This document shows, in pieces, positions 2,521 through 51,301 of a stretch of 51,875 nt of DNA. The notes beneath the pieces were generated by a model. It made no database searches. It was not told the origin of the DNA and saw only the letters and a program-made list of their open reading frames with translations. A program made the position numbers and the translations under genes. Within the stretch, counting starts at the first letter, position 1; every line of letters starts with the position of its first letter. The stretch lies in IMG/VR virus record IMGVR_UViG_3300045996_000640, positions 1 through 51,875 of that record. One strand, given 5' to 3'. This stretch comes from a virus (Duplodnaviria; Caudoviricetes).

Positions 2521-2533
2521 AAAGGGTTCAGGA

Positions 2534-2851
2534 ATGGGATTCCAAACAAACCGGATGCTACTCACGTTCGCGGTTGCGTGTATCGCCGTGCTTGCGGCGA
2601 GTTACGCGATCGGCAATGCGAACGATTACAACCCGCCTGCCGCGCCTGGCGCTGAGGGCACGGTAACGCTGCCGACGCCATGCACCGAAGCTAACCCGTG
2701 CGAGCCAATCGAAACGCCGACGGCCGAGCCAACCGCGACGGTTGATCCGGTCGGATTTATCACGCCGGTTCCGGTGGGCGATACCCTGGTAATCGAAATG
2801 CCCAGCACGGGCACGGGATCGACCGCTCGCACGTTCGTACCCTGGCAATGA
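2534..2851 (+). CDS. Exported Pro/Thr-rich protein with LPxTG-like MPSTG motif
   Basis: Hydrophobic N-terminal signal, PT-rich linker, MPSTGTG near the C-terminus; GGGTTCAG start motif. Confidence 0.75.
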   Translation: MGFQTNRMLLTFAVACIAVLAASYAIGNANDYNPPAAPGAEGTVTLPTPCTEANPCEPIETPTAEPTATVDPVGFITPVPVGDTLVIEMPSTGTGSTARTFVPWQ

Positions 2852-3057
2852 GCGCCGATTATTTCGCCGAGCGCATCGCCGATAGCCTGGTCGATCTGGT
2901 GCGCGAGGCAGGCGACGCAAACGAAATCGCCCGCGAGCAAAACGCGCTACTCAAACGAATTGCGCTCGCGGCTGAGGAATCCGCGCGCAATAATCCGTTG
3001 CGGCAGATCAACGACATTCTCGCGGCAACCGCGCCCGAGGAAACGATAGGCCGATAG
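2848..3057 (+). CDS. Hypothetical protein
   Basis: ATGA overlap with the upstream stop. Confidence 0.7.
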   Translation: MSADYFAERIADSLVDLVREAGDANEIAREQNALLKRIALAAEESARNNPLRQINDILAATAPEETIGR

Positions 3058-3075
3058 GCCGAAAGGGTTCAGAGG

Positions 3076-3378
3076 ATGCGCGCAACCTGCACGATGTACG
3101 TAACAGCACGCGGCGGGATACGCTGCACGAAAACGCGCGGCAAGGTCAATCCTGGCGAGGTCGCATTCGATGTGGAAGTATTCATACCGCAATCGGTATT
3201 TATCGAGCCGCATCGAAAAATCACGGTGCAGGTTCCCGGATCGAACGCCGCGCCGGTCGAAATCGAGGCAACCGCGTTCGAAGTTTGGGCCGACGATGGC
3301 GGGCCGTGCGATCCCGAGCCCGAGGCGGAAACGTATGCCGATCGCTATATGCGAAATCAGATCGGCGCGGGTAATTAG
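3076..3378 (+). CDS. Hypothetical protein
   Basis: GAAAGGGTTCAG upstream of ATG. Confidence 0.75.
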   Translation: MRATCTMYVTARGGIRCTKTRGKVNPGEVAFDVEVFIPQSVFIEPHRKITVQVPGSNAAPVEIEATAFEVWADDGGPCDPEPEAETYADRYMRNQIGAGN

Positions 3379-3381
3379 CGA

Positions 3382-3741
3382 ATGAGTGACGACGAAACGC
3401 GCGCCGGATTCTATCGCTCGATCTACGAAGGATCGAAGGCGGTCGACGCGCGTTTCGCGCCGCTATCCGAACGCATGGGCGCGATCATCGCCGAAATCGT
3501 CGGCAACCGCACGATAACCCAGGCGGATTACGGGCCGATCATGGCGCGCCTCGATCGCGAGCTCGGCAAGCTCTACCCGGAATCGCCGGGCGCGCCGTCC
3601 GTGCTCGAGGCTGACATTGTGACCATGAGCCGACGCGGCGGCGCGCGTGCCGTGAAATCCGCAATCGCGCCGATCATGCGCACGGTGAATCGCAAGGATC
3701 CCGAGCTCGGAGAGGAAATCCGAAATGCCGATTCCGGGTGA
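3382..3741 (+). CDS. Hypothetical helical protein, possibly the N-terminal part of a split MuF/head morphogenesis protein
   Basis: Tightly packed ORF upstream of MuF; role inferred from position only. Confidence 0.65.
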   Translation: MSDDETRAGFYRSIYEGSKAVDARFAPLSERMGAIIAEIVGNRTITQADYGPIMARLDRELGKLYPESPGAPSVLEADIVTMSRRGGARAVKSAIAPIMRTVNRKDPELGEEIRNADSG

Positions 3742-3949
3742 AAAGATTTGGGCGGTCGATACGTACGAGGTCACGATGCGCAGCTACGATGTGCGCGCCG
3801 CTACCCGCGATGAGGCCGAGGATATCGCCGATCGGTTAAGGAACGGCAAGCGCAGCCGCAAGGCCGTGTACCTGGGCAAGAATAGATTCGATATGGATCA
3901 AAGCTACAACGTGCGCGAGGTTGAGGAATCCGATGCCGATTCCCGCTGA
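3725..3949 (+). CDS. Hypothetical protein
   Basis: GAGG RBS; overlapping junction nearly identical to the next gene's junction. Confidence 0.7.
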   Translation: MPIPGEKIWAVDTYEVTMRSYDVRAATRDEAEDIADRLRNGKRSRKAVYLGKNRFDMDQSYNVREVEESDADSR

Positions 3950-5426
3950 TCTGGACATTGCCGACATATTCAACATGCACCATAGCCCGATCGCCCAGGC
4001 GGCGCGACGCGAGCGCGCGACGTTTTTCGACGATACGCGCACATGGGTCGATCCGAACGGGTACAGGCTGAGCGATCGCCTATGGCGGCAGCGGGCCGAT
4101 CTGCGGCGCGAGCTCGACAACATGGTACGCGAGGCGATCGGGCGCGGCGACGATGGGCTAAAGGTCGCGAATGATATCGAGCGGTACCTCAATCCGCGCT
4201 ATGCGCCGACACGTAACGCAAAAGGCAAGATCATACGCGACGGCCGAAAAGGCGTGCTCACGGCGAAACCGCGCAGCGGTACGGGGTCATACCCGGCGCG
4301 TCGCCTCATGCGAACCGAGATTACGCGCGCGCATGGCGTCGCAACGCAAGCGGTAGCGCGCAAGCTCGGCACGGCGTTGCGCTGGCGGCTGAGCGGATCG
4401 CATCCGAAAACGGATCGATGCGACGCGAAAGCGAGCGGCGGATCGCGTGGGCTGCCGCCTGGCACGCCCGACGGTGTATACAAGCTCGCCGATTTCCCGG
4501 CATACCCGGATCATCCTCAATGCTTATGCCATATTCAGCACTACACGATACAGGGCGATAACGAGCTAGTCGCGCGGTTGCGGGTCGATTACGGGCTCGC
4601 CTCGGCTGAGGAAACGGCGAATTTCTCGCGGGTATTCAATCAGGCGAGCCGGATGCGATCGCGCGGGCAAGCCGTTCCCGATAGCATGTTCGCGCCCGAT
4701 ATCTTGCGTGCGCCCAGGATCGCCGAGGTTCCGCGCGCGCCCGCATGGAAACCGGCAATGTCACGCGCTGAGGCCGATCGATGGGCGGCCGGTTCGATCG
4801 ACGATCGGGTATTCGCCCACGCGACGCGCGCCGAGAATTACGAATCGCTCGCGGCTGAGGGCTGGAACCTCGAGCGGCAATCATTCGGCCGCCTGTTCGG
4901 CGACGGCGTGTATATGACCAATTCCGAAACCCTGGTCACGGGATACGCCGATATGATCGCCGGGGCGGGCAATCCCGCGCGAGTCTTGCGCACACGGGTA
5001 AACATTCGAACGAAATTGCAATTCGACGATGCCGAAACGATCAACGGCGCTCATATGTGGGGAACGTTTCAAATGCGCGAGCGCGCGATCGGCGCGGCCG
5101 ATTGGGAGGCATTCGACGCGATATCGCTCGAAATCCGTACGGCGCATGAGGCAGGCGAACAGGCATACGCCCAATTTTGGGAGGCGAGAAACGCGCGCCT
5201 GAAAGCCGAGAACTTCGGATTCGCGCCGAAAGGTCCGGTACCGCTTACCGAGGCCGAGCGCGCGACTATGGCGGAAATTCAAGCCGGGCGGATATCCGAT
5301 CCCGATGCGCAGATAATGACGCGCTGGGCAAACGAGCAAGGCATCGACGCATTCGAGCTAGTCGGCGGGCCGCAGCCGCAGATCGTGGTATTCGATCCGC
5401 AGCGTGTAACGATTTTGGAGGACTAA
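3933..5426 (+). CDS. MuF/SPP1-gp7-like minor head protein with C-terminal ADP-ribosyltransferase-like (ART-PolyVal-type) domain
   Basis: MuF motifs ARRLMRTE, RWRLS..H...D.CD, P.HPQCLC; C-terminal HAT...FGDGVYMT...GYA...GIDAF...QIVVFDP. Confidence 0.85.
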   Translation: MPIPADLDIADIFNMHHSPIAQAARRERATFFDDTRTWVDPNGYRLSDRLWRQRADLRRELDNMVREAIGRGDDGLKVANDIERYLNPRYAPTRNAKGKIIRDGRKGVLTAKPRSGTGSYPARRLMRTEITRAHGVATQAVARKLGTALRWRLSGSHPKTDRCDAKASGGSRGLPPGTPDGVYKLADFPAYPDHPQCLCHIQHYTIQGDNELVARLRVDYGLASAEETANFSRVFNQASRMRSRGQAVPDSMFAPDILRAPRIAEVPRAPAWKPAMSRAEADRWAAGSIDDRVFAHATRAENYESLAAEGWNLERQSFGRLFGDGVYMTNSETLVTGYADMIAGAGNPARVLRTRVNIRTKLQFDDAETINGAHMWGTFQMRERAIGAADWEAFDAISLEIRTAHEAGEQAYAQFWEARNARLKAENFGFAPKGPVPLTEAERATMAEIQAGRISDPDAQIMTRWANEQGIDAFELVGGPQPQIVVFDPQRVTILED

Positions 5427-5660
5427 ATGCCGCGCTCATTCATGCCGGGCATGATTCCCGGTTGCAACTACTGCCGCCATAGTAACGACGATGGCACATG
5501 CGCCGCATACCCGGCCGGAATCCCGTACGCGATCAACACGGGTGATGTTCCGCATACCGTGCCGTTGCCGGGCGATCATGGCATCCAATTCGAGCCGCAG
5601 CCGATACCGGGATTGACCGCCCAGGAATACGCGGCAACGCTCGCGACCGTTGACGAATAG
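5427..5660 (+). CDS. Small Cys/His protein, candidate ART partner or immunity protein
   Basis: CxxCxH...CxAYPxGIP...H..P.PGDHGIQFEP; starts immediately after the MuF-ART stop. Confidence 0.8.
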   Translation: MPRSFMPGMIPGCNYCRHSNDDGTCAAYPAGIPYAINTGDVPHTVPLPGDHGIQFEPQPIPGLTAQEYAATLATVDE

Positions 5661-5678
5661 CGCATACGGGTTTACCAT
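5650..5678 (+). promoter_or_regulatory. Sigma70-like promoter P1
   Basis: TTGACG-N17-TACCAT, followed by hairpin 5686-5703 and GGGTTCAG. Confidence 0.65.
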
Positions 5679-5714
5679 GCAATGAGCGCGCCGCCTGGCG
5701 CGTACGGGTTCAGA

Positions 5715-6305: not shown

Positions 6306-6342
6306 TCCTCGCGCCCGGTAGGCTGGGCGCTGCTTACTCCCA

Positions 6343-6380: not shown

Positions 6381-6400
6381 CATTGCCGAAATATTCATGC

Positions 6401-6430
6401 TTGACACGCGGTACCGATCGGGTGTACAAT
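6401..6430 (+). promoter_or_regulatory. Sigma70-like promoter P2
   Basis: TTGACA-CGCGGTACCGATCGGGTG-TACAAT (18-bp spacer). Confidence 0.85.
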
Positions 6431-6481
6431 GCGTATACGCGGTTGAGCAATCGGGCTCGACCAAACGAAAGGGGTTCAGAA

Positions 6482-6766: not shown

Positions 6767-6781
6767 CCGGCACAGGCACAG

Positions 6782-6827
6782 GCGGGCGGCGATCGTGCCG
6801 CCCGCATCGATCAACGAAAGGGTTCAG
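6782..6827. repeat. 46-bp intergenic hairpin+start-motif element, near-identical to 39634-39679
   Basis: GCGGGCGGCGATCGTGCCG...TCGATCAACGAAAGGGTTCAG at both sites. Confidence 0.85.
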
Positions 6828-7144: not shown

Positions 7145-7180
7145 GAAACCCGGCCGCGCACACCGGCCGGGTTTCTCTTA
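7145..7180 (+). terminator. Intrinsic terminator, GAAACCCGGCCG family
   Basis: GAAACCCGGCCG-loop-CGGCCGGGTTTC followed by pyrimidine tail. Confidence 0.8.
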
Positions 7181-7189: not shown

Positions 7190-7219
7190 TTGACACGCGG
7201 TACCGATCGGGTGTATGAT
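7190..7219 (+). promoter_or_regulatory. Sigma70-like promoter P3
   Basis: TTGACA-CGCGGTACCGATCGGGTG-TATGAT. Confidence 0.85.
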
Positions 7220-7271
7220 CCTGTCAACGGGTTGGGCGATGGGCTCGACCGAAGCGAGAAGGGTTCAGACA

Positions 7272-7558: not shown

Positions 7559-7584
7559 GCCGCCCGGCGCGTGTGCCGGGCGGC
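7559..7584. repeat. Intergenic GCCGCCCGGC/GCCGGGCGGC hairpin
   Basis: Same stem at 29094, 29963 and 33947. Confidence 0.85.
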
Positions 7585-7608
7585 GTTCGAATTCGAAAGG
7601 GGTTCAGG

Positions 7609-8595: not shown

Positions 8596-9297
8596 ATGAA
8601 TAGGGGTTCTCACGTGTCAATTTTGTTTCCCGGTCGATTCGAAACGTTGTACGGCTCGCGGTTTCTCGAAACGGATCCCGCTAAGGCCGCAGCAAACCCG
8701 GCAGCCGATCCCGCTAAGACGGCTGATCCCGCGAAAACCGCCGATCCGCCCGCGTATAAGCCGCCTGCAACCCAGGATGAGCTCGACGCGCTAGTCGGCA
8801 AAGAAAAAGCCAAGGCCGAACGGGCGGCAAAAAAGGAAGTCGATGCAGCGGTCGCGGCTGCGAAAGCCGCAGCGATCGAGGAATACAAAACGGCACAGCA
8901 AAACGAACAGGCAGCCGCGCAAGGCGAATTCAAAACCTTGCACGAAAACGCGGTAAAGGAAATCGAAACGCTAAAGGGCAAGATCGCGACGCTGGAAAGC
9001 GAAAAAGAGTCGATCACGCTCGGCGCGCTGAAATCCTCGATCGCGGCAAAACACGGTCTACCGGCCGCGCTCGCCGATCGTTTGCAGGGGGATTCCGAGG
9101 CCGCGCTCGAGGAAGATGCGAAGGCGCTCGCCGCCGTAGCGAAAACCGAAAGCGCGCCAAACACTGAGGCGGGCAAGGGCAAGAGTACCGGCAACGGGCC
9201 GAGTTTCACGCCGCCCGTCAAATCGCCTACGCACAGGTTTGGAAACCGGGAAATTATCCCGTTCAACAAACCCGAGGCGCACGCAAAGGAGGCATAG
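8596..9297 (+). CDS. Capsid scaffolding protein (alternative GTG start 8614)
   Basis: TQDELDALV, coiled coil, GLP..LADRLQGDSE..LEEDA.AL motif; directly upstream of capsid genes. Confidence 0.85.
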   Translation: MNRGSHVSILFPGRFETLYGSRFLETDPAKAAANPAADPAKTADPAKTADPPAYKPPATQDELDALVGKEKAKAERAAKKEVDAAVAAAKAAAIEEYKTAQQNEQAAAQGEFKTLHENAVKEIETLKGKIATLESEKESITLGALKSSIAAKHGLPAALADRLQGDSEAALEEDAKALAAVAKTESAPNTEAGKGKSTGNGPSFTPPVKSPTHRFGNREIIPFNKPEAHAKEA

Positions 9298-12740: not shown

Positions 12741-12741
12741 A

Positions 12742-28498: not shown

Positions 28499-28528
28499 TT
28501 GACACGCGGTACCGATCGGGTGTACTAT
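28499..28528 (+). promoter_or_regulatory. Sigma70-like promoter P4
   Basis: TTGACA-CGCGGTACCGATCGGGTG-TACTAT with AT-rich upstream. Confidence 0.85.
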
Positions 28529-28580
28529 GCGTACATGAGGTCGGGCGATGGGCTCGGCGGTAGTGAAAAGGGTTCAGGCA

Positions 28581-29093: not shown

Positions 29094-29119
29094 GCCGCCC
29101 GGCACACGCGCCGGGCGGC
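29094..29119. repeat. Intergenic GC hairpin (reverse complement of 7559-7584)
   Basis: GCCGCCCGGCACACGCGCCGGGCGGC. Confidence 0.85.
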
Positions 29120-29141
29120 ATCGTTACGAAAGGGGTTCAGT

Positions 29142-29417: not shown

Positions 29418-29659
29418 GCATCGAATATCAAATCGAATGGCTCGACGAAAACGGCGACGCGATCGCCATGCAGACGATTTGGGGCGACGATCCGGCCGCC
29501 GCCGAATCGCGGGCGCGACGCGAGGCGAGCGCGGCACGAAGCAAGCTAGAAAGCAACTGCTACGCAACCGAGGTCAAACGGGTTCGCCTGGTCGATCCCG
29601 ACGGGCGCGAGCTCGATCTACGGCAGCGCAAGCGGCGACGCCGAAATACTCATGCTTGA
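29414..29659 (+). CDS. Hypothetical protein
   Basis: ATGA overlap; stop codon lies in the -35 box of P5. Confidence 0.7.
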   Translation: MSIEYQIEWLDENGDAIAMQTIWGDDPAAAESRARREASAARSKLESNCYATEVKRVRLVDPDGRELDLRQRKRRRRNTHA

Positions 29660-29685
29660 CAGGCGGTACCGATCGGGTGTATGAT
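29656..29685 (+). promoter_or_regulatory. Sigma70-like promoter P5
   Basis: TTGACA-GGCGGTACCGATCGGGTG-TATGAT. Confidence 0.85.
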
Positions 29686-29732
29686 CCTATCAACGGATCG
29701 GGCTACCGATCGAAGCACGAAGGGTTCAGGAA

Positions 29733-29962: not shown

Positions 29963-29991
29963 CGGCCGCCCGGCAGATCGCCGGGCGGCCG
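29963..29991. repeat. Intergenic GC hairpin
   Basis: CGGCCGCCCGGC-AGATC-GCCGGGCGGCCG. Confidence 0.85.
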
Positions 29992-30010
29992 CTTTCGAAA
30001 GGGGTTCAGT

Positions 30011-31184: not shown

Positions 31185-31321
31185 GCGATCACACGATCGA
31201 GCTTGTCGCCTCGGCGCTACTGATCGGTACGGCGGCAAATGCGATCGGATACGGCGTCGCGCTGGCGCATGGCATAGCAACCGATATCCTTGCCTGGTGG
31301 AAACGAAAGGGTTCAGAATGA
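31181..31321 (+). CDS. 46-aa membrane peptide
   Basis: ATGA overlaps at both ends; hydrophobic core (not in ORF track). Confidence 0.6.
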   Translation: MSDHTIELVASALLIGTAANAIGYGVALAHGIATDILAWWKRKGSE

Positions 31322-33585: not shown

Positions 33586-33671
33586 ACGCAAATCAGATCG
33601 CGGCGGCAATCGTCGCCGCGATCTTTCTCATTTGGGAAATGATCGACATTTGGCGCAATCGCAAGGGTTGA
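33582..33671 (+). CDS. 29-aa single-TM peptide
   Basis: ATGA overlap; MNANQIAAAIVAAIFLIWEMIDIWRNRKG. Confidence 0.6.
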   Translation: MNANQIAAAIVAAIFLIWEMIDIWRNRKG

Positions 33672-33697
33672 CAGGGTGTACCGGCCGGGTGTACTAT
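33668..33697 (+). promoter_or_regulatory. Sigma70-like promoter P6
   Basis: TTGACA-GGGTGTACCGGCCGGGTG-TACTAT. Confidence 0.8.
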
Positions 33698-33736
33698 TGA
33701 CGCAACGTCAAACGATCTAACGAAAGGGTTCAGGAA

Positions 33737-33946: not shown

Positions 33947-33972
33947 GCCGCCCGGCAACCTCGCCGGGCGGC
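33947..33972. repeat. Intergenic GC hairpin
   Basis: GCCGCCCGGC-AACCTC-GCCGGGCGGC. Confidence 0.85.
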
Positions 33973-33997
33973 CGTTCGTATCTCGAAAGGGTTCAGC

Positions 33998-34638: not shown

Positions 34639-34672
34639 CGAAACCCGGCCGATTTGGTTCGGCCGGGTTTCG
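34639..34672 (+). terminator. Intrinsic terminator, GAAACCCGGCCG family
   Basis: CGAAACCCGGCCGA-loop-TCGGCCGGGTTTCG. Confidence 0.75.
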
Positions 34673-34723
34673 CTACGATCCGGGTTCAGTGGACGCGATA
34701 CGATCATACCATAGGGACAACGA

Positions 34724-35611: not shown

Positions 35612-35620
35612 GGGTTCAGG

Positions 35621-36340: not shown

Positions 36341-36743
36341 TTCGCGCGACAACATCGGCGGCGCGTTCGGCGTGCTGCTCGCGCGGCGGTTGCGCGCGGC
36401 CGGAATGAGCCAACAAAAGGCGAGCACACGCGCCGGGTTCGACCATAGTTATTTCAGCCGCCTTATCAGCGGGTCGAGGATGCCAACCGCAAAATCGGTG
36501 AATCAAATCGCCGACGCGCTCAACTGGACAGTGAATCAGCGGCGTACGGCAATGATGGCGGCGGGATTCCTGCCGGATGACGCGCTACGGGCGGTCGACG
36601 CCGATCTTATCGAGCTTGTCGATGCGCTGGCGCGCGTCGAGGCGCACGATCCGGTATGGGCCGAATCGGTACGGGACAACACGCGGGCGCTTACTAACAC
36701 GGCGAACAGGCTTGCCGATATGTACGAAAGGGTTCAGCAATGA
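36333..36743 (+). CDS. XRE-family HTH regulator
   Basis: FG.LL...LRAAGMSQQK...AGFDHSYFSRL.SG.R.P...IADAL. Confidence 0.85.
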   Translation: MSNSRDNIGGAFGVLLARRLRAAGMSQQKASTRAGFDHSYFSRLISGSRMPTAKSVNQIADALNWTVNQRRTAMMAAGFLPDDALRAVDADLIELVDALARVEAHDPVWAESVRDNTRALTNTANRLADMYERVQQ

Positions 36744-37162: not shown

Positions 37163-37668
37163 TGGGCGCGCCCAGGCTAAGCCCGATGGTACGCGAGGCG
37201 TTGCGCGAGCTCGCCGACGAATTGACGCCGCAGCACACGGCAACCGACGGCACGATCGACCGCAAACGCCTGGCGGTCGACGTGCTGCGGGCCGCGCGCT
37301 CGAATGTCGCGGTCTATAGCATGCTCACGGCCGAGGGCCGCGCGATCGCGGTTGACTCATTCATTGCGGATCTGTACCGGGATCGGCGGCAGAAAGTGAC
37401 GATCGCCGGGCGCGAAACGTCGGTACGCGAAACCTATGCCGTGCCGCATCCTGGCGGCAAGTGGGTAACGAAATCGATCGACGCGCTTACGGCCGATGAT
37501 ATGGTGCTAATCGAGCGGCACATACACGCCGAGGCGATGACGCGCCTACGGGCGGCGAAAGATATCCGCACGCTGCGCGGGTTCGAAACGAGCGACGCGG
37601 CGCAAATGCAATTGGACGACGGGCCGGTATCGGCCGAGGAAGGGGTTCAGGATGACGAAACCGGATGA
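37162..37668 (+). CDS. Hypothetical protein
   Basis: TGATG overlap. Confidence 0.75.
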   Translation: MGAPRLSPMVREALRELADELTPQHTATDGTIDRKRLAVDVLRAARSNVAVYSMLTAEGRAIAVDSFIADLYRDRRQKVTIAGRETSVRETYAVPHPGGKWVTKSIDALTADDMVLIERHIHAEAMTRLRAAKDIRTLRGFETSDAAQMQLDDGPVSAEEGVQDDETG

Positions 37669-38259: not shown

Positions 38260-38288
38260 TTGACGCGGCGTGCCGCGCGGTGTAACAT
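38260..38288 (+). promoter_or_regulatory. Sigma70-like promoter P7
   Basis: TTGACG-N17-TAACAT; spacer ends GGTG as in P2-P6. Confidence 0.6.
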
Positions 38289-38324
38289 GTACGAAACGGT
38301 ACTACTGAGCGAAAGGGGTTCAAA

Positions 38325-38663: not shown

Positions 38664-38956
38664 TGGCTGCCGTCGATCAGGAACACGCCGACGATTGGAA
38701 AGATCCCGTACCGCGCAAGCCGCGCGGCGTAGAAGGCGGAACGCGGCGAGATTTGCGAATGCGCCGGGCGTACCTAATTTCCCGGCTCGCCGATATCGAT
38801 CGCGAGCTCGCCAAACCGGAACGCGACCGCGACGCGATCGCCTCGAGCGATCCCGCGAGATTTTGCCTGGCGAGCACGGTATCGCCGCCCGATGTGTACG
38901 CCTCGGCGTATTGCAACGGATATCGGCGCTGCATGTCGGATATACTTGACAGGTAG
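38663..38956 (+). CDS. Hypothetical protein
   Basis: TAATG overlap. Confidence 0.65.
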   Translation: MAAVDQEHADDWKDPVPRKPRGVEGGTRRDLRMRRAYLISRLADIDRELAKPERDRDAIASSDPARFCLASTVSPPDVYASAYCNGYRRCMSDILDR

Positions 38957-38975
38957 TGACTACAGGGTGTAAACT
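38946..38975 (+). promoter_or_regulatory. Sigma70-like promoter P8
   Basis: TTGACA-GGTAGTGACTACAGGGTG-TAAACT. Confidence 0.8.
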
Positions 38976-39028
38976 ACACGTATGAGGTTGATCGATCGGC
39001 GATCACCTAAAGCGAAACGGGTTCAGAC

Positions 39029-39325: not shown

Positions 39326-39385
39326 GGATTCAACGGGCGGCCGCGATCGGGCGGCCGCCCAGGATCGCAAGCGGAAGGGTTCACG

Positions 39386-39622: not shown

Positions 39623-39681
39623 ACATTCGAACAGCGGGCGGCGATCGTGCCGACTGCCTCGATCAACGAAAGGGTTCAGCA

Positions 39682-40363: not shown

Positions 40364-40375
40364 AAAGGGTTCAGG

Positions 40376-41445: not shown

Positions 41446-41548
41446 GTGCGCGCCGATCGCATTTGCGCTACGCTACGGAGAATGGCGGCGGGCGTGTGCT
41501 TTTTTGAGTCGGGAGGATACGCCCGTTGCCTTTACCAAAGGGGTTCGC

Positions 41549-46000: not shown

Positions 46001-46348
46001 ACTGAGCTCGAGGCGGCGGCTGCCATACTGAGCGATGGCGACGCGCTCTTAGTCGTGCTCAGCGAAACCGATAGCGCGGCCGTATTCCTTTCGGATATCG
46101 AAACGCTAACCGCGATCCTGGCGATCGACGAAAGCAAAACGAGCTATACGTATGGATTCGATCCGGCGCGCGTCATTCGCGCCGGGCGCGGGTATGCGAT
46201 CGTATACGCGGGCCGCCCAGGAACGCCGCGACTTGCAGGCGGGCCGGATTCGATCCTGGCAATCGAGGCGGGCCGCGAGCTCGACAATATCGACGGCGGC
46301 CGATCAGGCGGGCCGCAAACAGCCGAAGGGGGCCGCAATGTCTTTTAG
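43055..46348 (+). CDS. Large virion fibre-like protein: N-terminal beta-rich head + 20-aa acidic repeat stalk
   Basis: AQSFT...PGT.IAT...L.SGTKYW module, Asp-box STNDGVSW, about 24 DT(D/E)TIAPTLSE repeats. Confidence 0.85.
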   Translation: MAPVTVLANSRNSYYSAGNIGWSATSAFAYRTHLQQLIGTAATSFGNTVATERFAQSFTPTANVSLTEFMVAIFKAGTPTDNLSLAVYAETTDAPGTLIATAANVYTGANISTSASWLEFGFSTPVALTSGTKYWFALYRSGAVDGTNYYRIMRTTTSAYAGHGSTYYDTGAWSGFVDPDVDVAFQLKVVTPSALYQLAQDTGVSPKLRMFKSTNDGVSWSEVDSANAPSVNAGTAPFDGCDTRSGPYIGAAYFIDADSIRMRAFNMSSDTWGGDLQSADATGAVTASQERSIRVAIDNRFVTASHGSQYIQFTSLADDADLGFTTRSTIAWTANATAVFSGNTTEASLNSAVVVDKAPHGYVHRFYYDPVGDDYTMISVNFGTTGIATDIEAAATSTETGHISACYQIYQNGSGVDTIVAAYMDNLSVKERILTLEATSASVAMAAEAETNINTGAAGRQVSTCSFNGTRYVAANVSGAVFQYSTSTVAGTWSSASNFKTGLTSATLSNVLSIEGYGLLVSYTDNGDTKVDWIVAPSGGSTPVNDTDTIAPTLSEADTLAAAIPDTETIAPTLTEVEAVSKVTSDTETIAPTLSEADTVAVALSDTDTIAPTLTEAEAISITKDDTDTIAPTLSEAETLTAAIPETETIAPTLSEVEAVSKLTNDADTIAPTIAEAESLAATASDAESITPTLSEADTVARTGSDTDTLAPTLTEVDTVAITAVDVDTIAPTLAEVDSATITLSDTETVAPGLSEADSVAAVLSDTETIAPTLSESESYSEGVTPKDDTETISPTLAEVDTVTVAVTDSDTISPTLTEVENTAQAHNDADTISPTLTEAETLTAAISEAETIAPILGEGDALTAALSETDTIAPVLSELEIVGQSKSDTDTIAPTLSEVESYDDGVTLVNDSDTIAPTLSEAETLTATAAETETIAPTLTESESVLKEIPKNDTDTIAPTLSETELLAAAIADADTIAAIITELEAAAAILSDGDALLVVLSETDSAAVFLSDIETLTAILAIDESKTSYTYGFDPARVIRAGRGYAIVYAGRPGTPRLAGGPDSILAIEAGRELDNIDGGRSGGPQTAEGGRNVF
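44690..46130. repeat. About 24 tandem 60-bp (20-aa) coding repeats
   Basis: ACGATCGCGCC(C/G)ACGCT recurring every 60 bp. Confidence 0.95.
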
Positions 46349-46721: not shown

Positions 46722-47204
46722 ATGACAGCACGAAAGCCGGGCCGTAAATCGGCGCTCGACACGCACGCCGAGCAAATCGCCGAAGTGATCCGGCACATAC
46801 GCAACGGGCACAAGCACAAACGCGCATGCGCCGCCGCTGGTATGAACTTTCAGACATTCGAGAACCTATGCAGCAAAGGCCGGAAACCCGACGCCGACGA
46901 TCGGCATAGGGCGCTCGCCGAGGCAGCCGATACCGCCGCCGAGGCCGGGCTAGTGAACCGGGTTGCAATGATCGAAATGCACGGGTTCGACGATTGGCGC
47001 GCGCTCGCCTGGTTGGTCGCGCGGCAGGATCCCGAGCGGTACGGCGCGGTTCGCACGGTTCGCCTCGGCGGCGATCCCGACGGCGTGCCGGTCAAGACGG
47101 AAACGGCGAGCTCGATCGATTTCACCGGATGGGAACCGTCGCGCATCGCCGCCTATATCGAACTGGTCGAGGGTAGCGGCGAGGTCGAGCTCGAGGACGA
47201 ATGA
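46722..47204 (+). CDS. terS: Terminase small subunit
   Basis: GRKS.L....I...IRNG.....AC..AG..., DWRA.AWL..R..PERYG; upstream of TerL. Confidence 0.85.
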   Translation: MTARKPGRKSALDTHAEQIAEVIRHIRNGHKHKRACAAAGMNFQTFENLCSKGRKPDADDRHRALAEAADTAAEAGLVNRVAMIEMHGFDDWRALAWLVARQDPERYGAVRTVRLGGDPDGVPVKTETASSIDFTGWEPSRIAAYIELVEGSGEVELEDE

Positions 47205-47275: not shown

Positions 47276-47278
47276 GGC

Positions 47279-48703
47279 ATGAACGCGCAGCTAAACGCGA
47301 ACGTTCGCGCCGCCCGGCAAGCGTTGCGGCGTACCGATCTGATCGCCTTTACCAAGCGCATGTATCCGGGCTATCAGGCGGGCAAGATTCACCGCGACAT
47401 TGCCGATTTCCTGCACCGTGCCGAAACCGTGCCGAACTTTCGCGGCGTGTTGGTCGTGCCGCCCAGGTTCGGCAAATCCGAGCTCGCATCGGTGCAATTT
47501 CCGAGCTACTACCTGGGGCGGCATCCTGATCGGGAAATCATCGCCGCGAGCCATACACAGGATCTAACGAATCATTTCAGCCGCCGCGCCCGGCGCAACG
47601 TGCAATCGCGCGCGTATTACCCGTTTCCCGAGGTCGCGATCGCTGGCGACGCAAGCGCGGTCGAGCAATGGGAAGTAGAAGCCGACGGGTACCGGCGGCG
47701 CGGCCGGTATCAGGGCGTCGGCGTCGGCGGATCACCGGCCGGGCGCGGCGCGAATGTGCTGCTGGTCGATGATCCGGTAAAAAATGCGAAATCGGCGGAA
47801 AGCCTGGTCGACCGCGAAACCGCGTGGGAATGGTTTCGGCGCGACATGCTTACCCGCCTGCAACCCGAGGCGAGCGCGGTCGTGATCGGTACCCGCTGGC
47901 ATTGGGATGATCTGATCGGCCGCATTATCAAATCCAATCAGGAGGAAGATCGTTGGGAAATCCTGCATTTCCCGGCATTGCTCGCCGACGGAACCTCACT
48001 CGATCCCGAGCGATGGCCGATCGGCGATCTGATGGAACGGCGGAAAGACGTGGGCGAACGGGTTTGGGACGCGCTCTATCAGGGCGTACCAACCGCCGAC
48101 GAAGGCGCGATCCTCAAACGGGCATGGTTTCCGCTTTACACGGAATTACCCGAAGGCATCCTCTATACGATCCAATCATGGGATACGGCATTCAAGGGCG
48201 GCGAGCTCAACGATTACAGCGTGTGCCATACCTACGCGGTCACGGTGTACGGGCTATTCCTGGTAAGCCGCTTCAAAGGGCAGCCGGATTACCCCGACCT
48301 CGAGCGGCAAGCCGAAAGCCTGTACGCGCAATTCAAGCCGTCGAAGGTCTATATCGAGGATAAGGGTAGCGGGCAATCGCTCATACAATCGCTGCGGAAA
48401 AACCCGCGCCATAAAATCCCGGTGATCCCGGTTCCGGTTCCGCCTGGCGAGGGAAAAATCAAACGAGCGCACGACGCAACGCCTATCCTCGAGGGGCAAC
48501 GGGTGTACCTGCCAGCATGGGCACCGTGGACGGATGACACGCTCGCCGAGTTTACGGCGTTCCCGCTGGGCGTTCACGATGACGAAGTAGACGCTATGAT
48601 ACAGGCAGTATTGCGGGAATTCGGCGATCCGGCCGTACCGCGATTGGTTTCCTCGACGTACACGCAAACCGACGATCCAAACGCATACCCGGTGAGGGAA
48701 TGA
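47279..48703 (+). CDS. terL: Terminase large subunit
   Basis: Walker A PPRFGKS, Walker B LLVDDP, GTRWH, nuclease SWDTA...D.S...IEDKGSG...HDDEVDA. Confidence 0.97.
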   Translation: MNAQLNANVRAARQALRRTDLIAFTKRMYPGYQAGKIHRDIADFLHRAETVPNFRGVLVVPPRFGKSELASVQFPSYYLGRHPDREIIAASHTQDLTNHFSRRARRNVQSRAYYPFPEVAIAGDASAVEQWEVEADGYRRRGRYQGVGVGGSPAGRGANVLLVDDPVKNAKSAESLVDRETAWEWFRRDMLTRLQPEASAVVIGTRWHWDDLIGRIIKSNQEEDRWEILHFPALLADGTSLDPERWPIGDLMERRKDVGERVWDALYQGVPTADEGAILKRAWFPLYTELPEGILYTIQSWDTAFKGGELNDYSVCHTYAVTVYGLFLVSRFKGQPDYPDLERQAESLYAQFKPSKVYIEDKGSGQSLIQSLRKNPRHKIPVIPVPVPPGEGKIKRAHDATPILEGQRVYLPAWAPWTDDTLAEFTAFPLGVHDDEVDAMIQAVLREFGDPAVPRLVSSTYTQTDDPNAYPVRE

Positions 48704-48704
48704 C

Positions 48705-50132
48705 ATGCCGCAACCGCTACGATTAACGCATGAGGCGATCGACGCCGAGCGCAAGGCGTATTTCCCGTCGGGTACTGACATTCGGAAATTCCGGCAGTAT
48801 GCGGCAGGCGATCAGGTTAAAAACCTCAACGCCGATATGCGCGCTATTCTCGGCAGTCAACGCAATAACAACACGGCCGATAACGTGCTCGATCTTGTCT
48901 TGCGCACGACGGCGGGCCGCCTGAATTTCGAAGGGTGGACAGTTACCGATCCTCGGGTACTCGCCCAGGGCGAGCCGCAGCCGGAAAACCGATCGGCCGA
49001 GGCCGATGCCGTTCAGCAATTCCTCGAAACGTTCTATCTGAAATCGCGCATATCCGGGCTGCAATTCGATACGCATTACGCGACGCTGCGCGACGGCGTT
49101 ACCGCGCTTTCGCTGCGATGGAAACCGGGCGCGACGGCAACCGATCCCGGCCGCCCGACCGCGCACCGCGAAAACTGGTGGGATGGGCGCACGGGCGTAT
49201 TCGTCGGGTTCGATGAATTCGACGAGCCCGCCTATGCGGTCAAGGATTGGCGCGAAACGATCGACGGCCGCGAGCGCGATCGCCGCACGGTCTACTATCC
49301 CGATGCGATCTATCGATTTATCAAGGACGGCGGTTGGCAGCCGTACCGCTTGCCTGGCGATCCCGAAGGGCCGTTTATTCCGTGGGTTCGTGCCGACGGT
49401 ACGCCGCTCGGGTTGCCGATCATTCCGTTTGCGAACGCGGTTGCCGATTCCGGTATGTACGGCCGATCGGATATCAAAGGGTTGCTTGGCATTCAGGACG
49501 ATATCAATCAGATCGGCGTCGATATCACGGCGGCCGCTATGTTCGCCGGGTTCCAAATGTATTTCGCGTCGGGGCTCGAGATTCCCGAAGGTTCCGGGCA
49601 AGTCGGGCCGGGCCGTATCCTGAGCTCGCCCGATCCCGCCTCACGTATGACGGCGATCCCGCCTGGGCCTATGGATTCGCTGATCGAATCCTACGAAAGC
49701 AAGCGGCAAACGATCGCGATCGACACGGCGACGCCGATGCACATTATCGGCGGCGATTGGCCGAGCGGCGAGGCGTTGCTACGTTCGGAAATGCCGCTGG
49801 TCGATAAGGTAACGCGCCTCGGCGCGGTGCTCGCGCCGTCGTGGACATTGCTCGCGCATCGGGCAACCGAGCTCGCAAACCGATTCGGCGGGCTGAGCCT
49901 CAACGAAAACGCGCCGATCACGGTCAATTACGCCGCGCCTGAGCATTTGGATGAGCTCACCGAAATTCAGGTTAAGTCGGCAACGGTCGATCTGTACGCG
50001 AAACTCGCAAATATCAGCGATCCCGAATTGCTGGTCAAAACCGGGCTAGTGACGCAAGCCGAGGCCGCCGCGATGATCGCGGCGCGAGCCCAGCGCGCCC
50101 AGGCGTTTATGACTGAGGAGGCCGCATTCTAA
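48705..50132 (+). CDS. Portal protein (SPP1 gp6-like)
   Basis: Follows TerL; LG.PII.F.N....GRSDI...IQD.IN; PSGEAL...E.PL..K. Confidence 0.92.
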   Translation: MPQPLRLTHEAIDAERKAYFPSGTDIRKFRQYAAGDQVKNLNADMRAILGSQRNNNTADNVLDLVLRTTAGRLNFEGWTVTDPRVLAQGEPQPENRSAEADAVQQFLETFYLKSRISGLQFDTHYATLRDGVTALSLRWKPGATATDPGRPTAHRENWWDGRTGVFVGFDEFDEPAYAVKDWRETIDGRERDRRTVYYPDAIYRFIKDGGWQPYRLPGDPEGPFIPWVRADGTPLGLPIIPFANAVADSGMYGRSDIKGLLGIQDDINQIGVDITAAAMFAGFQMYFASGLEIPEGSGQVGPGRILSSPDPASRMTAIPPGPMDSLIESYESKRQTIAIDTATPMHIIGGDWPSGEALLRSEMPLVDKVTRLGAVLAPSWTLLAHRATELANRFGGLSLNENAPITVNYAAPEHLDELTEIQVKSATVDLYAKLANISDPELLVKTGLVTQAEAAAMIAARAQRAQAFMTEEAAF

Positions 50133-50839
50133 TGCGTGGATTAGGGCGATTAGCACCGAGCGATTACGAACACGTCGAGAAATACCCGCTGCGCGCGATC
50201 ATGCCGCGCACGGTCGATACCGTCGAGCGGGTGCTATCGCTGCCGAGCCCGCAACGCTATCGGATCCTGCACGATCAACCCGACGGTTCTTGCGTCGGGT
50301 ATTCGCTTTCGTGGTGTATGTCGATCCTTAACCGCCGACTGTATGCGGCGCATTGGTTGTATGAGGAAGCGCAGCGCCGCGACGAATGGCCTGGCGAATA
50401 TCCGGCATACGAAGGTACGAGCGTTCGCGCCGGGCTCGACGTGCTACGCGAAACCGGGCACAGGCGGATCTATCGCGGGCAAACGCGGGATTCCAATTAC
50501 GCCGACGGGATCGAGGCGTTTCGCTGGGCGCAATCGGTCGACGAAATACGAACCTCGATCGCCGAGGGCGTGCCGGTCGATTTGGGCATCGATTGGTTTG
50601 ATTCGTTCGATCGCCCGGAACGGCGCGGCCGGGAATGGTGGATGCCCGCGCCGTCGGGCCGGATCATCGGCGGGCATGCCATTTGCTGCTACGGCGCATC
50701 CGATCGGCGGCAAGCGGTTCGCCTGGTGAATACCTGGGGGCTCGAATACCCGCTGGTATGGGTTCCGTACAATCTGATCGAGCGATTGCTCGCCGGGTTC
50801 GATTTCCCAGGCGAGGCCGCCGTTATCACCGATCGCTGA
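50132..50839 (+). CDS. Papain-like (C1A) cysteine peptidase
   Basis: DQ..GSCVG (Gln/Cys), GGHAI (His), NTWG (Asn). Confidence 0.9.
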   Translation: MRGLGRLAPSDYEHVEKYPLRAIMPRTVDTVERVLSLPSPQRYRILHDQPDGSCVGYSLSWCMSILNRRLYAAHWLYEEAQRRDEWPGEYPAYEGTSVRAGLDVLRETGHRRIYRGQTRDSNYADGIEAFRWAQSVDEIRTSIAEGVPVDLGIDWFDSFDRPERRGREWWMPAPSGRIIGGHAICCYGASDRRQAVRLVNTWGLEYPLVWVPYNLIERLLAGFDFPGEAAVITDR

Positions 50840-50851
50840 AAGGATCGACCA

Positions 50852-50926
50852 ATGTTTCGTGCAATCGGAATCGCCGCCGTTGTCGGGTTCCTGCTATTCG
50901 TCGCGTTCCTTTTCTGGATTTTCTAA
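50852..50926 (+). CDS. 24-aa TM peptide
   Basis: GAAAGGA RBS; MFRAIGIAAVVGFLLFVAFLFWIF. Confidence 0.55.
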   Translation: MFRAIGIAAVVGFLLFVAFLFWIF

Positions 50927-50932
50927 GCCGCG

Positions 50933-51022
50933 ATGATCTATTGCGCCTGGGCGATCATGGCGGCGCTGCCGTGCGCGCTCGCGATCCTGGGCGCGTACGC
51001 CGCGTTTCGTTACGGCACTTGA
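50933..51022 (+). CDS. 29-aa hydrophobic peptide
   Basis: MIYCAWAIMAALPCALAILGAYAAFRYGT; weak RBS. Confidence 0.4.
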   Translation: MIYCAWAIMAALPCALAILGAYAAFRYGT

Positions 51023-51048
51023 CAGATAGTACCGGCAGGGCATACTAT
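51019..51048 (+). promoter_or_regulatory. Sigma70-like promoter P9
   Basis: TTGACA-GATAGTACCGGCAGGGCA-TACTAT. Confidence 0.8.
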
Positions 51049-51100
51049 CCGTGTATGAGGTTGATCGATCGGCGATCACCAAACGCACGAAGGGTTCAGC

Positions 51101-51301
51101 ATGGAGCGAATGACACGCGAGCGCATACGCCGGTTGTATGGGCTAAAGCCGCTCGGCAACTGCGCCGCCGAGGTTAAATCGTTTGAGGATTGGTCGACGC
51201 CGCGCACATGCTGGCGTCGCGCAACGACGATCGTTGACGGGCGCGAGCTCTGCACGCAACACGCCGACATAGCGCGGCGCGAACAGGCGGCGAGCAAATG
51301 A
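51101..51301 (+). CDS. Small Cys/His protein
   Basis: Start motif at 51092; C...C...C..H. Confidence 0.75.
   Translation: MERMTRERIRRLYGLKPLGNCAAEVKSFEDWSTPRTCWRRATTIVDGRELCTQHADIARREQAASK

What the first reader, a model, noticed from the sequence alone, without database searches (positions are those of the whole stretch)
2521..51101. Start-associated GGGTTCAG motif marks at least 21 non-structural genes (candidate translational regulon)
Seen: exact GGGTTCAG lies 1-3 nt before a start codon at 2524, 3065, 5706, 6472, 6820, 7261, 7600, 28570, 29133, 29722, 30002, 31309, 33726, 33989, 35612, 36730, 37643, 39019, 39672, 40367 and 51092. Variants occur at 38316, 39377 and 41541, and one non-start copy at 34682. 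Consensus is (C)GAAAG(G)GGTTCAG-N1-3-ATG. It persists even where it lies inside the upstream coding sequence (31309, 36730, 37643). Capsid, tail, lysis, terminase and portal genes do not carry it. GAAAGG explains SD pairing, but the invariant TTCAG lies in the SD-start spacer, which normally has no sequence constraint. Known precedents are mycobacteriophage Cluster K start-associated sequences and T4 RegA/RegB control of initiation regions; I do not recognise this motif. Inference: a site for an RNA-binding protein, endoribonuclease or sRNA that co-ordinately switches early-gene translation. This is the best candidate for an undescribed system here.
Basis: partly seen in the sequence, partly recalled or inferred. 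Interest (0 to 1): 0.85.

Follow-up and report, generated by a model that had tools for sequence, protein, structure and literature searches.

The report
Start-associated RBS motif in soil phage
An uncultivated soil phage places the same 8-letter word, GGGTTCAG, one to three bases before the start codon of about two dozen early or accessory genes, a pattern that resembles the unexplained start-associated sequences of Cluster K mycobacteriophages and points to shared control of their translation.

Summary
GGGTTCAG occurs 22 times, all on the + strand, against 0.71 expected. In 21 of 22 copies an ATG (20) or TTG (1) follows 1-3 nt later and opens an ORF of 63 aa or more. Three near-variants sit at starts in the same way.

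The window is a complete 51,875-bp phage record with direct terminal repeats, and it has siphovirus-type genes. The motif marks 18 of 24 independently initiated early or accessory genes and 0 of 10 such late or structural genes. The carrier genes are not paralogues.

The purine 5' part, RAAR-GGG(G), is a Shine-Dalgarno sequence at normal spacing. The invariant TTCAG is not explained by 16S pairing.

The motif follows either one of nine sigma70-like promoters, a conserved GC hairpin, or upstream coding sequence.

It is not enriched in the phage relatives I could reach, nor in 401 Chloroflexota and 201 Acidobacteriota genomes.

Best reading: a start-associated sequence analogous to the Cluster K mycobacteriophage SAS, that is, an extended ribosome-binding element probably read by a trans-acting factor on the mRNA. 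No such factor was found. The host is unknown, and the DNA of close relatives could not be reached.

The parts
2524..2531 (+). motif copy, 2 nt before ATG 2534 (105 aa ORF)
3065..3072 (+). motif copy, 3 nt before ATG 3076 (100 aa)
5706..5713 (+). motif copy, 1 nt before TTG 5715 (196 aa); weak purine tract upstream
6472..6479 (+). motif copy, 2 nt before ATG 6482 (94 aa); promoter-linked
6820..6827 (+). motif copy, 3 nt before ATG 6831 (83 aa); hairpin-linked
7261..7268 (+). motif copy, 3 nt before ATG 7272 (92 aa); promoter-linked
7600..7607 (+). motif copy, 1 nt before ATG 7609 (147 aa); hairpin-linked
28570..28577 (+). motif copy, 3 nt before ATG 28581 (167 aa); promoter-linked
29133..29140 (+). 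motif copy, 1 nt before ATG 29142 (91 aa); hairpin-linked
29722..29729 (+). motif copy, 3 nt before ATG 29733 (73 aa); promoter-linked
30002..30009 (+). motif copy, 1 nt before ATG 30011 (151 aa); hairpin-linked
31309..31316 (+). motif copy inside the 3' end of ORF 31181-31321, 1 nt before ATG 31318 (ParB-like, 277 aa)
33726..33733 (+). motif copy, 3 nt before ATG 33737 (66 aa); promoter-linked
33989..33996 (+). motif copy, 1 nt before ATG 33998 (211 aa, similar to a Thermus phage P23-45 ORF annotated as ssDNA-binding protein); hairpin-linked
34682..34689 (+). the only copy without a start codon after it. It follows hairpin 34640-34671 and lies 34 nt before ATG 34724 (replication-initiator-like gene)
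35612..35619 (+). motif copy, 1 nt before ATG 35621 (239 aa)
36730..36737 (+). motif copy inside the 3' end of the HTH ORF 36291-36743, 2 nt before ATG 36740 (140 aa)
37643..37650 (+). motif copy inside the 3' end of ORF 37162-37668, 1 nt before ATG 37652 (87 aa)
39019..39026 (+). motif copy, 2 nt before ATG 39029 (98 aa); promoter-linked
39672..39679 (+). motif copy, 2 nt before ATG 39682 (155 aa); hairpin-linked
40367..40374 (+). motif copy, 1 nt before ATG 40376 (182 aa)
51092..51099 (+). motif copy, 1 nt before ATG 51101 (66 aa); promoter-linked
38316..38323 (+). variant GGGTTCAA, 1 nt before TTG 38325 (112 aa)
39377..39384 (+). variant GGGTTCAC, 1 nt before ATG 39386 (78 aa)
41541..41548 (+). 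variant GGGTTCGC, directly before ATG 41549 (66 aa)
5650..5678 (+). sigma70-like promoter (TTGACG-17-TACCAT) 28 nt upstream of motif 5706
6401..6430 (+). conserved sigma70-like promoter TTGACA-18-TACAAT, 42 nt upstream of motif 6472
7190..7219 (+). conserved promoter TTGACA-18-TATGAT, 42 nt upstream of motif 7261
28499..28528 (+). conserved promoter TTGACA-18-TACTAT, 42 nt upstream of motif 28570
29656..29685 (+). conserved promoter TTGACA-18-TATGAT, 37 nt upstream of motif 29722
33668..33697 (+). conserved promoter TTGACA-18-TACTAT, 29 nt upstream of motif 33726
38260..38288 (+). promoter-like TTGACG-17-TAACAT, 28 nt upstream of variant 38316
38946..38975 (+). conserved promoter TTGACA-18-TAAACT, 44 nt upstream of motif 39019
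51019..51048 (+). conserved promoter TTGACA-18-TACTAT, 44 nt upstream of motif 51092. Found by alignment; the scan tool was not run on this stretch
6781..6805 (+). GC hairpin 15 nt upstream of motif 6820
7559..7584 (+). GC hairpin (GCCGCCCGGC-loop-GCCGGGCGGC) 16 nt upstream of motif 7600
29094..29119 (+). same hairpin family, 14 nt upstream of motif 29133
29965..29989 (+). same hairpin family, 13 nt upstream of motif 30002
33947..33972 (+). same hairpin family, 17 nt upstream of motif 33989
34640..34671 (+). hairpin 11 nt upstream of the non-start copy 34682
39634..39657 (+). imperfect GC hairpin 15 nt upstream of motif 39672

Best explanation
The motif is a start-associated sequence: an 11-13 nt extended ribosome-binding element, RAAR-GGGTTCAG, placed 1-3 nt before the start codon. 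This phage uses it at nearly every independently initiated early or accessory gene.

Shown: the element exists, keeps a strict position, follows gene class, and does not depend on flanking context or on gene family.

Inferred from established Shine-Dalgarno rules: the 5' part, (G)AAAGGG(G), pairs with the CCUCCUUUC end of 16S rRNA over 7-8 bp, including one G-U pair, at normal aligned spacing, and so recruits the 30S subunit.

Inferred only: the invariant 3' part, UUCAG, lies in the spacer and cannot pair with the 16S tail. I take it to be a second determinant, read on the mRNA by a sequence-specific trans-acting factor such as a translational repressor or activator, or an endoribonuclease. 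The factor could be encoded by the phage or the host. Under this reading about 24 mRNA start regions are switched together while late genes, which use ordinary GGAGG-type sites, are left alone.
For: - Count and strand: 22 exact copies against 0.71 expected, all on the coding strand.
- Position: 21 of 22 lie 1-3 nt before a start codon, P about 2e-27.
- Gene class: 18 of 24 gap-preceded early or accessory genes carry the exact motif and 3 more carry near-variants. None of 10 gap-preceded late or structural genes does. Fisher P = 6e-5.
- Context independence: the motif is found after nine sigma70-like promoters 28-44 nt upstream, after GC hairpins, and inside upstream ORFs in two different reading frames.
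- Not from duplication: the carrier genes share no detectable similarity.
- SD role of the 5' part: the mean predicted duplex with a generic anti-SD is -9.1 kcal/mol for the 21 motif sites. No other SD-like tract lies between these sites and their start codons. Five non-motif genes use GAAAGG alone.
- Spacer not explained by the SD: sites with weak purine tracts (5715 at -3.9, 39029 at -5.7) still keep exact GGGTTCAG.
- 16S: 5 of 5 Chloroflexota 16S genes end ...GGATCACCTCCTTT followed by c/t. None has a conserved internal complement of GGGUUCAG.
- Precedent: the Cluster K SAS shows the same syndrome, and its authors argued in the same way that the conserved non-pairing positions imply more than an RBS (PMC3203893, passages read).
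Against: - No trans-acting factor was identified. The nine family scans of ten proteins each, with overlap between libraries, gave no RNA-binding or RNase family. The Atlas search of ORF 30456 gave nothing usable.
- Only one genome carries the motif among those I could read, so I have no evidence on how the motif is conserved or turned over during evolution.
- All genes lie on one strand, so the strand bias cannot separate RNA-level from DNA-level recognition.
- One copy (34682) has no adjacent start codon.
- A cis-only benefit of this particular spacer for the unknown host's ribosome cannot be excluded.
- Predicted local folding does not show the GUUC core as especially exposed: unpaired probability is 0.2-0.4, against 0.44 for the background.
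Confidence: 0.55

Rival explanations
1. Cis-only standard RBS cassette. The whole 11-13 nt word is simply this phage lineage's preferred initiation region for the host ribosome, with no dedicated trans-acting factor. It would be kept by selection for efficient initiation and perhaps spread by recombination at gene boundaries.
For: - The 5' part is a good SD at the right spacing.
- GAAAGG-type SDs are also used without TTCAG at five other genes.
- The motif often travels with a reusable promoter or hairpin module.
- No factor was found.
Against: - An SD-to-start spacer normally carries no sequence constraint, yet here 21 sites are identical over 8 nt while the SD-like purines upstream vary.
- Sites with poor SD pairing keep the exact core.
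- Late genes, which are presumably highly expressed, never use it.
- The flanks are unrelated and the genes are not paralogues, so recent copying of a longer cassette does not explain the 14 or so sites without a shared promoter.
Confidence: 0.22
2. DNA-level protein-binding site of the stoperator kind, as in mycobacteriophage L5. A phage DNA-binding protein would bind the asymmetric site in double-stranded DNA at the head of each early gene and block or pause RNA polymerase. The closeness to start codons would then be secondary.
For: - It is an asymmetric 8-13 bp site in about 24 copies, in one orientation relative to transcription and in short intergenic spaces. This matches what I recall of L5 stoperators, which PMC3203893 contrasts with SAS.
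- The phage encodes HTH proteins (36291-36743, 34724-35611, and a weak match at 38325).
Against: - Spacing to the start codon is strict at 1-3 nt, which a roadblock would not need.
- The motif supplies the only SD-like tract of these genes.
- It never overlaps the nine promoters and lies 28-44 nt downstream of the -10 element.
- No integrase or other sign of lysogeny was found among the large ORFs, and all genes are on one strand.
Confidence: 0.13
3. Promoter or processing signal that yields leaderless or near-leaderless mRNAs. The motif would direct initiation by a phage-modified or phage-encoded RNA polymerase, or cleavage by an RNase, just upstream of the AUG. These genes would then be translated as leaderless messages.
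For: - The motif ends 1-3 nt from the start codon, and the start is ATG in 20 of 21 sites.
- A 1097-aa ORF of unknown function (43055-46348) has no family or PDB sequence match, so an unrecognised enzyme cannot be excluded.
- From my own recollection, not from any call: GG/UU with G at -2 and U at +2 resembles the RNase E preference reported for enterobacteria.
Against: - Nine copies or variants already lie in the leaders of canonical sigma70-like promoters.
- The purine tract at SD distance would be removed, and therefore useless, in a leaderless message.
- No conservation extends upstream of about -4, which would make a very short promoter.
Confidence: 0.1

Closest known systems
Start-associated sequences (SAS) of Cluster K mycobacteriophages (Pope et al. 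2011, PMC3203893; passages read. The 2025 survey PMC12699233, passages read, still gives the function as unknown)
   Same: - A short asymmetric repeat in 11-19 copies per genome there, and 22 plus 3 variants here.
- One orientation.
- Restricted to non-structural genes.
- Lies a few nt before the start codon, with a strong ATG preference.
- Contains an SD core plus highly conserved positions that cannot pair with 16S rRNA.
- Associated with genes of unrelated families.
- About half of the sites have an additional upstream element. There it is the ESAS inverted repeats; here it is GC hairpins at 7 sites and conserved promoters at 7-9.
   Different: - The sequence is unrelated: GGGATAGGAGCCC there, RAARGGGTTCAG here.
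- The spacing is tighter: 1-3 nt against 3-7.
- The invariant non-pairing part lies 3' of the SD only.
- The phage is unrelated. Its MCP has no match in the phage collection, and its host is probably not an actinobacterium, since MCP relatives sit in Chloroflexota and Acidobacteriota MAGs.
- No conservation across relatives could be shown here.
26-bp SAS-like repeat of Citrobacter myophage Mordin (PMC4611695, passage read)
   Same: [quoted passage not shown] Its role is unknown.
   Different: It is much longer (26 bp), has fewer copies, and has a different sequence and phage type.
T4 RegB and RegA control of early mRNAs
   Same: Early-gene initiation regions share a short signal that a phage factor uses to shut off early translation. 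RegB cuts GGAG in early SDs. RegA binds around the AUG.
   Different: No RegA or RegB homologue was detected in any scanned protein. The signal here is a defined 8-mer in the spacer, not the SD itself.
Stoperators of Cluster A mycobacteriophages such as L5 (mentioned in PMC3203893; details recalled)
   Same: A 13-bp asymmetric site in many copies, in one orientation relative to transcription and in short intergenic gaps.
   Different: Stoperators are repressor sites in DNA, also occur in structural operons, share their sequence with the promoter operator, and have no fixed distance to start codons. None of these holds here.

Membership tests
Start-associated sequence (SAS) phenomenon, as defined for Cluster K phages | Short asymmetric repeat, many copies per genome, essentially one orientation | tested here: met
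   22 exact copies on + and 0 on -, against 0.71 expected
Start-associated sequence (SAS) phenomenon, as defined for Cluster K phages | Located within a few nucleotides upstream of predicted start codons, mostly ATG | tested here: met
   21 of 22 copies lie 1-3 nt upstream; 20 starts are ATG and 1 is TTG
Start-associated sequence (SAS) phenomenon, as defined for Cluster K phages | Restricted to non-structural genes | tested here: met
   0 of 10 gap-preceded late or structural genes, against 18 of 24 early or accessory genes
Start-associated sequence (SAS) phenomenon, as defined for Cluster K phages | Contains an SD core plus conserved positions with no pairing potential to the 16S 3' end | tested here: met
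   The GAAAGGG(G) part pairs, and the invariant TTCAG does not. The host 16S itself is unknown, so 5 Chloroflexota 16S genes were used as stand-ins
Start-associated sequence (SAS) phenomenon, as defined for Cluster K phages | Consensus 5'-GGGATAGGAGCCC with at most 2 mismatches (the criterion used in PMC3203893 and PMC12699233) | tested here: not met
   The motif here is RAARGGGTTCAG. It is an analogue of the Cluster K element, not a homologous member
Start-associated sequence (SAS) phenomenon, as defined for Cluster K phages | Conserved across related phages at genes of different families | not testable with these tools
   Relatives with MCP 75-97% identical exist, but their DNA could not be fetched. 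Reachable relatives, with MCP at most 51% identical, lack the motif
Start-associated sequence (SAS) phenomenon, as defined for Cluster K phages | Rare or absent in the host genome | tested here: inconclusive
   The host is unknown. ARGGGTTCAG-N1-3-ATG occurs at most 3 times per genome in 401 Chloroflexota and at most 4 times in 201 Acidobacteriota, and 3-10 times for the looser pattern in the 3 MAGs that hold MCP relatives
Stoperator (L5-type repressor site) | The same sequence also forms the operator at the early promoter | tested here: not met
   The motif lies 28-44 nt downstream of the -10 element of all nine promoters and never inside them
Stoperator (L5-type repressor site) | Sites distributed through both early and structural operons | tested here: not met
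   There is no copy in 8.1-28.5 kb or 41.6-51.0 kb
Stoperator (L5-type repressor site) | Temperate phage with a cognate repressor that binds the site | not testable with these tools
   No integrase was found. HTH proteins are present, but binding cannot be tested here
T4 RegB/RegA-type control | Presence of a RegB or RegA homologue | tested here: not met
   No such family appeared in the nine Pfam, PHROGs and NCBIfam scans of ten proteins each. A non-homologous analogue is not excluded
Plain Shine-Dalgarno site | Conservation explained by complementarity to the 16S 3' tail | tested here: not met
   Only the 5' 7-8 nt pair. UUCAG stays invariant even where the SD part is weak

The most novel reading that the evidence does not exclude
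One of the phage's many ORFans may encode a sequence-specific RNA-binding translational switch or an endoribonuclease. Its operator would be the 8-nt word GGGUUCAG, sitting between the SD and the AUG of about 24 early mRNAs. That would be a RegA/RegB-like early shut-off or activation system with an unusually sharp recognition site, in a phage of an uncultivated soil bacterium that may belong to the Chloroflexota. It would also offer a mechanism for the long-unexplained SAS class of elements.
Probability: 0.35. Interest if true: 0.75.

Novelty: new variant of a known kind. Interest (0 to 1): 0.55.

Why it matters
Start-associated sequences have been known since 2011 and were still functionally unexplained in 2025. 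In the full-text searches made here, SAS-type repeats came up only for Cluster K mycobacteriophages and for one Citrobacter myophage.

This is an independent and sharper case. It has an exact 8-mer, 1-3 nt spacing and 21 identical sites, in an unrelated soil phage. Its SD part and non-SD part are cleanly separable. That suggests the phenomenon is a general phage strategy for marking a set of genes at the level of translation initiation.

It also gives a simple test object: mutate TTCAG and keep the SD. If a factor exists, it would be a compact and portable translational control module.

Tried and rejected
**Relatives**
- TerL relatives in IMG/VR are at most 38% identical and show no enrichment of the motif.
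- The MCP has no match in the cultured-phage collection. A single-protein search of genome contigs and viral contigs also found nothing.
- Profile searches with the MCP alignment A1 gave 3 loci in genomes, 35 in metagenomes and 24 in viral contigs, all at most 51% identical. None is enriched for the motif.
- I read five whole related virus records (G001-G005) and none has any start-associated k-mer of its own.
- Motif-pattern scans of IMG/VR gave only single, chance-level hits.
- The 1097-aa ORF has no close relative.

**Sequencing runs**
- Two soil-metagenome DNA runs hold the phage as identical low-depth contigs, which gives no information on variants. No RNA holder was listed.

**Other explanations tested**
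- rRNA pairing for TTCAG: rejected.
- tRNA or Rfam elements: none found.
- Paralogy of the carrier genes: rejected.
- A phage trans sRNA from the + strand with perfect complementarity: rejected, because CTGAAC occurs 0 times against 6-10 expected. Partial complements are at chance level and lie inside ORFs.
- A Chi-like or restriction-avoidance reading: rejected, because the word is tied to start codons and its double-stranded site is not avoided.
- Integron attC core GTTRRRY: the motif does not fit it.

- ORFs 13497, 38325 and 30456 gave no informative family.
- Structure prediction and complex prediction were not used, because there was no defined candidate.

**Limits**
- Supplementary tables of the SAS papers were not seen.
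- The counts include the unpublished genomes G235, G432 and G560, with one match each.

Full report
**What the window is.** The window is a whole IMG/VR virus record of 51,875 bp. It has direct terminal repeats, and I measured them at 127 bp. GC content is 61%, and every convincing gene lies on the + strand.

PHROGs identify two DNA methyltransferases (20-2520), a head-morphogenesis protein (3921-5426), a scaffold protein (8596-9297), a 1492-aa tape measure (15193-19671), tail proteins and a small terminase (46722-47204). The large terminase (47279-48703) has relatives that are at most 38% identical. PHROGs gave no family for 9689-10783, and 48705-50132 was not scanned.

The capsid protein has no match among cultured phages. 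It does have many metagenomic relatives. The named ones sit in two Chloroflexota MAGs and one Pyrinomonadaceae MAG at about 41% identity. Two soil metagenome runs hold the phage itself. The host is therefore unknown; it is a soil bacterium and may belong to the Chloroflexota.

**The observation.** Exact GGGTTCAG occurs 22 times on the + strand and never on the - strand. Dinucleotide-preserving shuffles gave a mean of 0.71 and a maximum of 5. In 21 of 22 copies a start codon lies 1-3 nt downstream and opens an ORF of 63-277 aa. Twenty of these starts are ATG; the one at 5715 is TTG. A random + strand position meets that criterion with probability 0.047, so this result has P about 2e-27.

Of all GGTTCAG 7-mers on the + strand, 22 of 25 lie 1-4 nt before such a start. 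No other 7-mer in this genome behaves like this, and none does in five related virus records or two related loci.

Without any selection on my part, position -2 is A in 21 of 21 sites, -3 is A in 16 of 21 and -1 is A or G in 19 of 21. Further upstream, and downstream of the start codon, the flanks are essentially unconstrained. The ORFs behind the motif have coding-like composition in 19 of 21 cases.

**Which genes carry it.** I took the genes that are preceded by an intergenic gap of at least 9 nt, meaning they are not translationally coupled. In the accessory and early regions (51.1 kb through the terminal repeat to 8.1 kb, and 28.5-41.7 kb), 18 of 24 have the exact motif and 3 more have a variant. 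In the late regions, 0 of 10 have it. Fisher's exact test gives P = 6e-5.

Three further exact copies lie inside the 3' end of the preceding ORF, where they encode ...KGSE...RVQQ and ...GVQD. They are therefore kept in two different reading frames.

The carrier genes are small, mostly acidic ORFans. Pfam and PHROGs were each run on all 21. Exactly two carriers match a PHROGs family. One is the ParB-like gene at 31318, which also matches Pfam ParB_N. The other is 33998, which matches only unnamed PHROGs families and is about 42% identical to a Thermus phage P23-45 ORF annotated as an ssDNA-binding protein. An all-against-all BLASTP of my 80 ORFs found no similarity between any two carriers; the only hit was between the two methyltransferases.

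**Context.** The motif appears in three unrelated settings.

- Promoter-linked. Nine sigma70-like promoters each lie 28-44 nt upstream of a copy or variant, so the motif closes a leader of about 20-40 nt. Seven of them share the nearly identical sequence CTTGACA-GGCGGTACCGATCGGGTG-TAnnAT.
- Hairpin-linked. Seven GC hairpins directly follow a stop codon and lie 11-17 nt before the motif. Two of their seven stem pairs show compensatory changes. One of these hairpins precedes the only copy without a start codon, at 34682.
- Intragenic. Three copies lie inside upstream coding sequence.

The common unit is therefore the 11-13 nt word itself.

**What the word can do.** Five of five complete Chloroflexota 16S genes end ...GGATCACCTCCTTT, followed by c/t. 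That matches the usual bacterial anti-SD tail. The part GAAAGGG(G) can pair with CCUCCUUUC over 7-8 bp, including one G-U pair.

The predicted duplex energy against a generic tail averages -9.1 kcal/mol for the 21 sites, which falls within the range of the phage's other genes. The distance from the SD part to the start codon is normal. Five non-motif genes use GAAAGG alone, so this purine tract is a working SD type for the host.

TTCAG cannot pair with the tail, and no conserved complement of GGGUUCAG exists elsewhere in those 16S genes. Sites with a poor purine tract (5715 at -3.9 kcal/mol, 39029 at -5.7) still keep exact GGGTTCAG. The invariant core is therefore not explained by ribosome pairing. 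Local folding predictions show no special exposure or common structure.

**Is it a wider signal?** It is not, in anything I could reach.

- TerL relatives and MCP relatives (at most 51% identical) show no enrichment.
- IMG/VR pattern scans gave chance-level single hits.
- In the three MAGs that hold MCP relatives, the motif followed by ATG occurs 3-10 times per genome.
- In 401 Chloroflexota genomes the stricter pattern occurs at most 3 times per genome, with 87 of 401 having any match.
- In 201 Acidobacteriota genomes it occurs at most 4 times per genome, with 62 of 201 having any match.

Closer relatives exist, with capsid proteins 97, 90, 85, 75 and 68% identical.

**Interpretation.** The strict spacing, the SD-like 5' half, the absence of any other SD-like tract at these genes, and the persistence inside coding sequence all place the function at translation initiation.

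The invariance of a spacer that normally has no sequence constraint, across unrelated genes and contexts, calls for a sequence-specific reader. The alternative is an unusual cis effect. I favour a trans-acting factor on the mRNA that co-regulates the promoter-driven early and accessory genes apart from the late genes, which use GGAGG, GAGG or GAAAGG sites. This step is inference. No factor was found in nine family scans of ten proteins each or in one Atlas search.

A perfectly complementary + strand sRNA is excluded, because CTGAAC occurs 0 times against 6-10 expected. That depletion may itself reflect avoidance of sequences able to pair with the motif.

The rivals are a cis-only cassette, a stoperator-like DNA site, and a promoter or processing signal for leaderless mRNAs. 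They are weighed in their own sections.

**Comparison with what is known.** The closest known thing is the start-associated sequence of Cluster K mycobacteriophages. It is a 13-bp asymmetric repeat in 11-19 copies, 3-7 bp before mostly ATG starts of non-structural genes. It contains an SD core plus conserved non-pairing positions, is nearly absent from the host, and has no known function (PMC3203893, passages read). A 2025 survey of 188 genomes still calls its function unverified (PMC12699233, passages read). A 26-bp SAS-like repeat was noted in Citrobacter phage Mordin (PMC4611695, passage read).

The present element meets the positional and architectural criteria but not the sequence criterion, so it is an analogue in an unrelated phage. 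Full-text searches for the word together with 'phage' and 'start codon' gave nothing relevant, and a search for intergenic repeat and RBS terms gave nothing relevant. I therefore found no prior description of this motif.

**Verdict.** The feature is real and statistically overwhelming. It is a new variant of the SAS kind. My confidence that it is a translation-start-linked cis element is about 0.85. My confidence that a dedicated trans-acting RNA-level factor reads it is about 0.35-0.45.

Noticed in passing
window 6401-6430, 7190-7219, 28499-28528, 29656-29685, 33668-33697, 38946-38975, 51019-51048: Seven sigma70-like promoters share not only TTGACA and TAnnAT but also a nearly identical 18-nt spacer, GGCGGTACCGATCGGGTG, which contains the short palindromes GGTACC and CGATCG. 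This could be an operator for a common regulator of the early promoters.
   Followed up: partly
window 7559-7584, 29094-29119, 29965-29989, 33947-33972, 6781-6805, 39634-39657, 34640-34671, 7145-7175: A family of GC-rich hairpins lies directly after stop codons, and most lack a U-tract. Two of the seven stem pairs show compensatory changes. They may be mRNA-stabilising or processing hairpins rather than terminators.
   Followed up: partly
window 43055-46348: This 1097-aa ORF has no Pfam, PHROGs or PDB sequence match and no close relative in IMG/VR. It is the largest unexplained gene of the phage.
   Followed up: partly
window 33998-34633: This motif-bearing gene is about 42% identical over residues 1-134 to an ORF of Thermus phages P23-45 and P74-26 that some records annotate as an ssDNA-binding protein.
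   Followed up: no
window 32369-32391 and 32653-32675: An exact 23-nt direct repeat marks the starts of two small, translationally coupled ORFs that both begin MTERNAI. They lie in what at first looked like a 724-nt gap.
   Followed up: partly
window, whole + strand: CTGAAC, the complement of the motif core, is absent from the + strand (0 observed, 6-10 expected from Markov models), and TGAAC is depleted (15 against about 40 expected from the order-1 and order-2 models, 21 from order 3). The mRNAs may avoid sequences that could pair with the motif.
   Followed up: partly
window 20-2520: Two adjacent DNA methyltransferase genes lie between the packaging genes and the head genes. Motif-bearing accessory genes flank them at 51101, 2534 and 3076.
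   Followed up: no
G004 (locus L259 region, record positions about 30351-30375 and 31286-31310): A distant MCP relative carries duplicated promoter-like repeats of the form GGTGTATGATCCCTTAT. Their -10 region resembles that of the window's early promoters, but no start-associated motif follows them.
   Followed up: no
window 12722-12741: AGGTTCAG directly precedes the GGAGG SD of the late gene 12742. This is the only place where the TTCAG word sits upstream of an ordinary SD rather than downstream of one.
   Followed up: no
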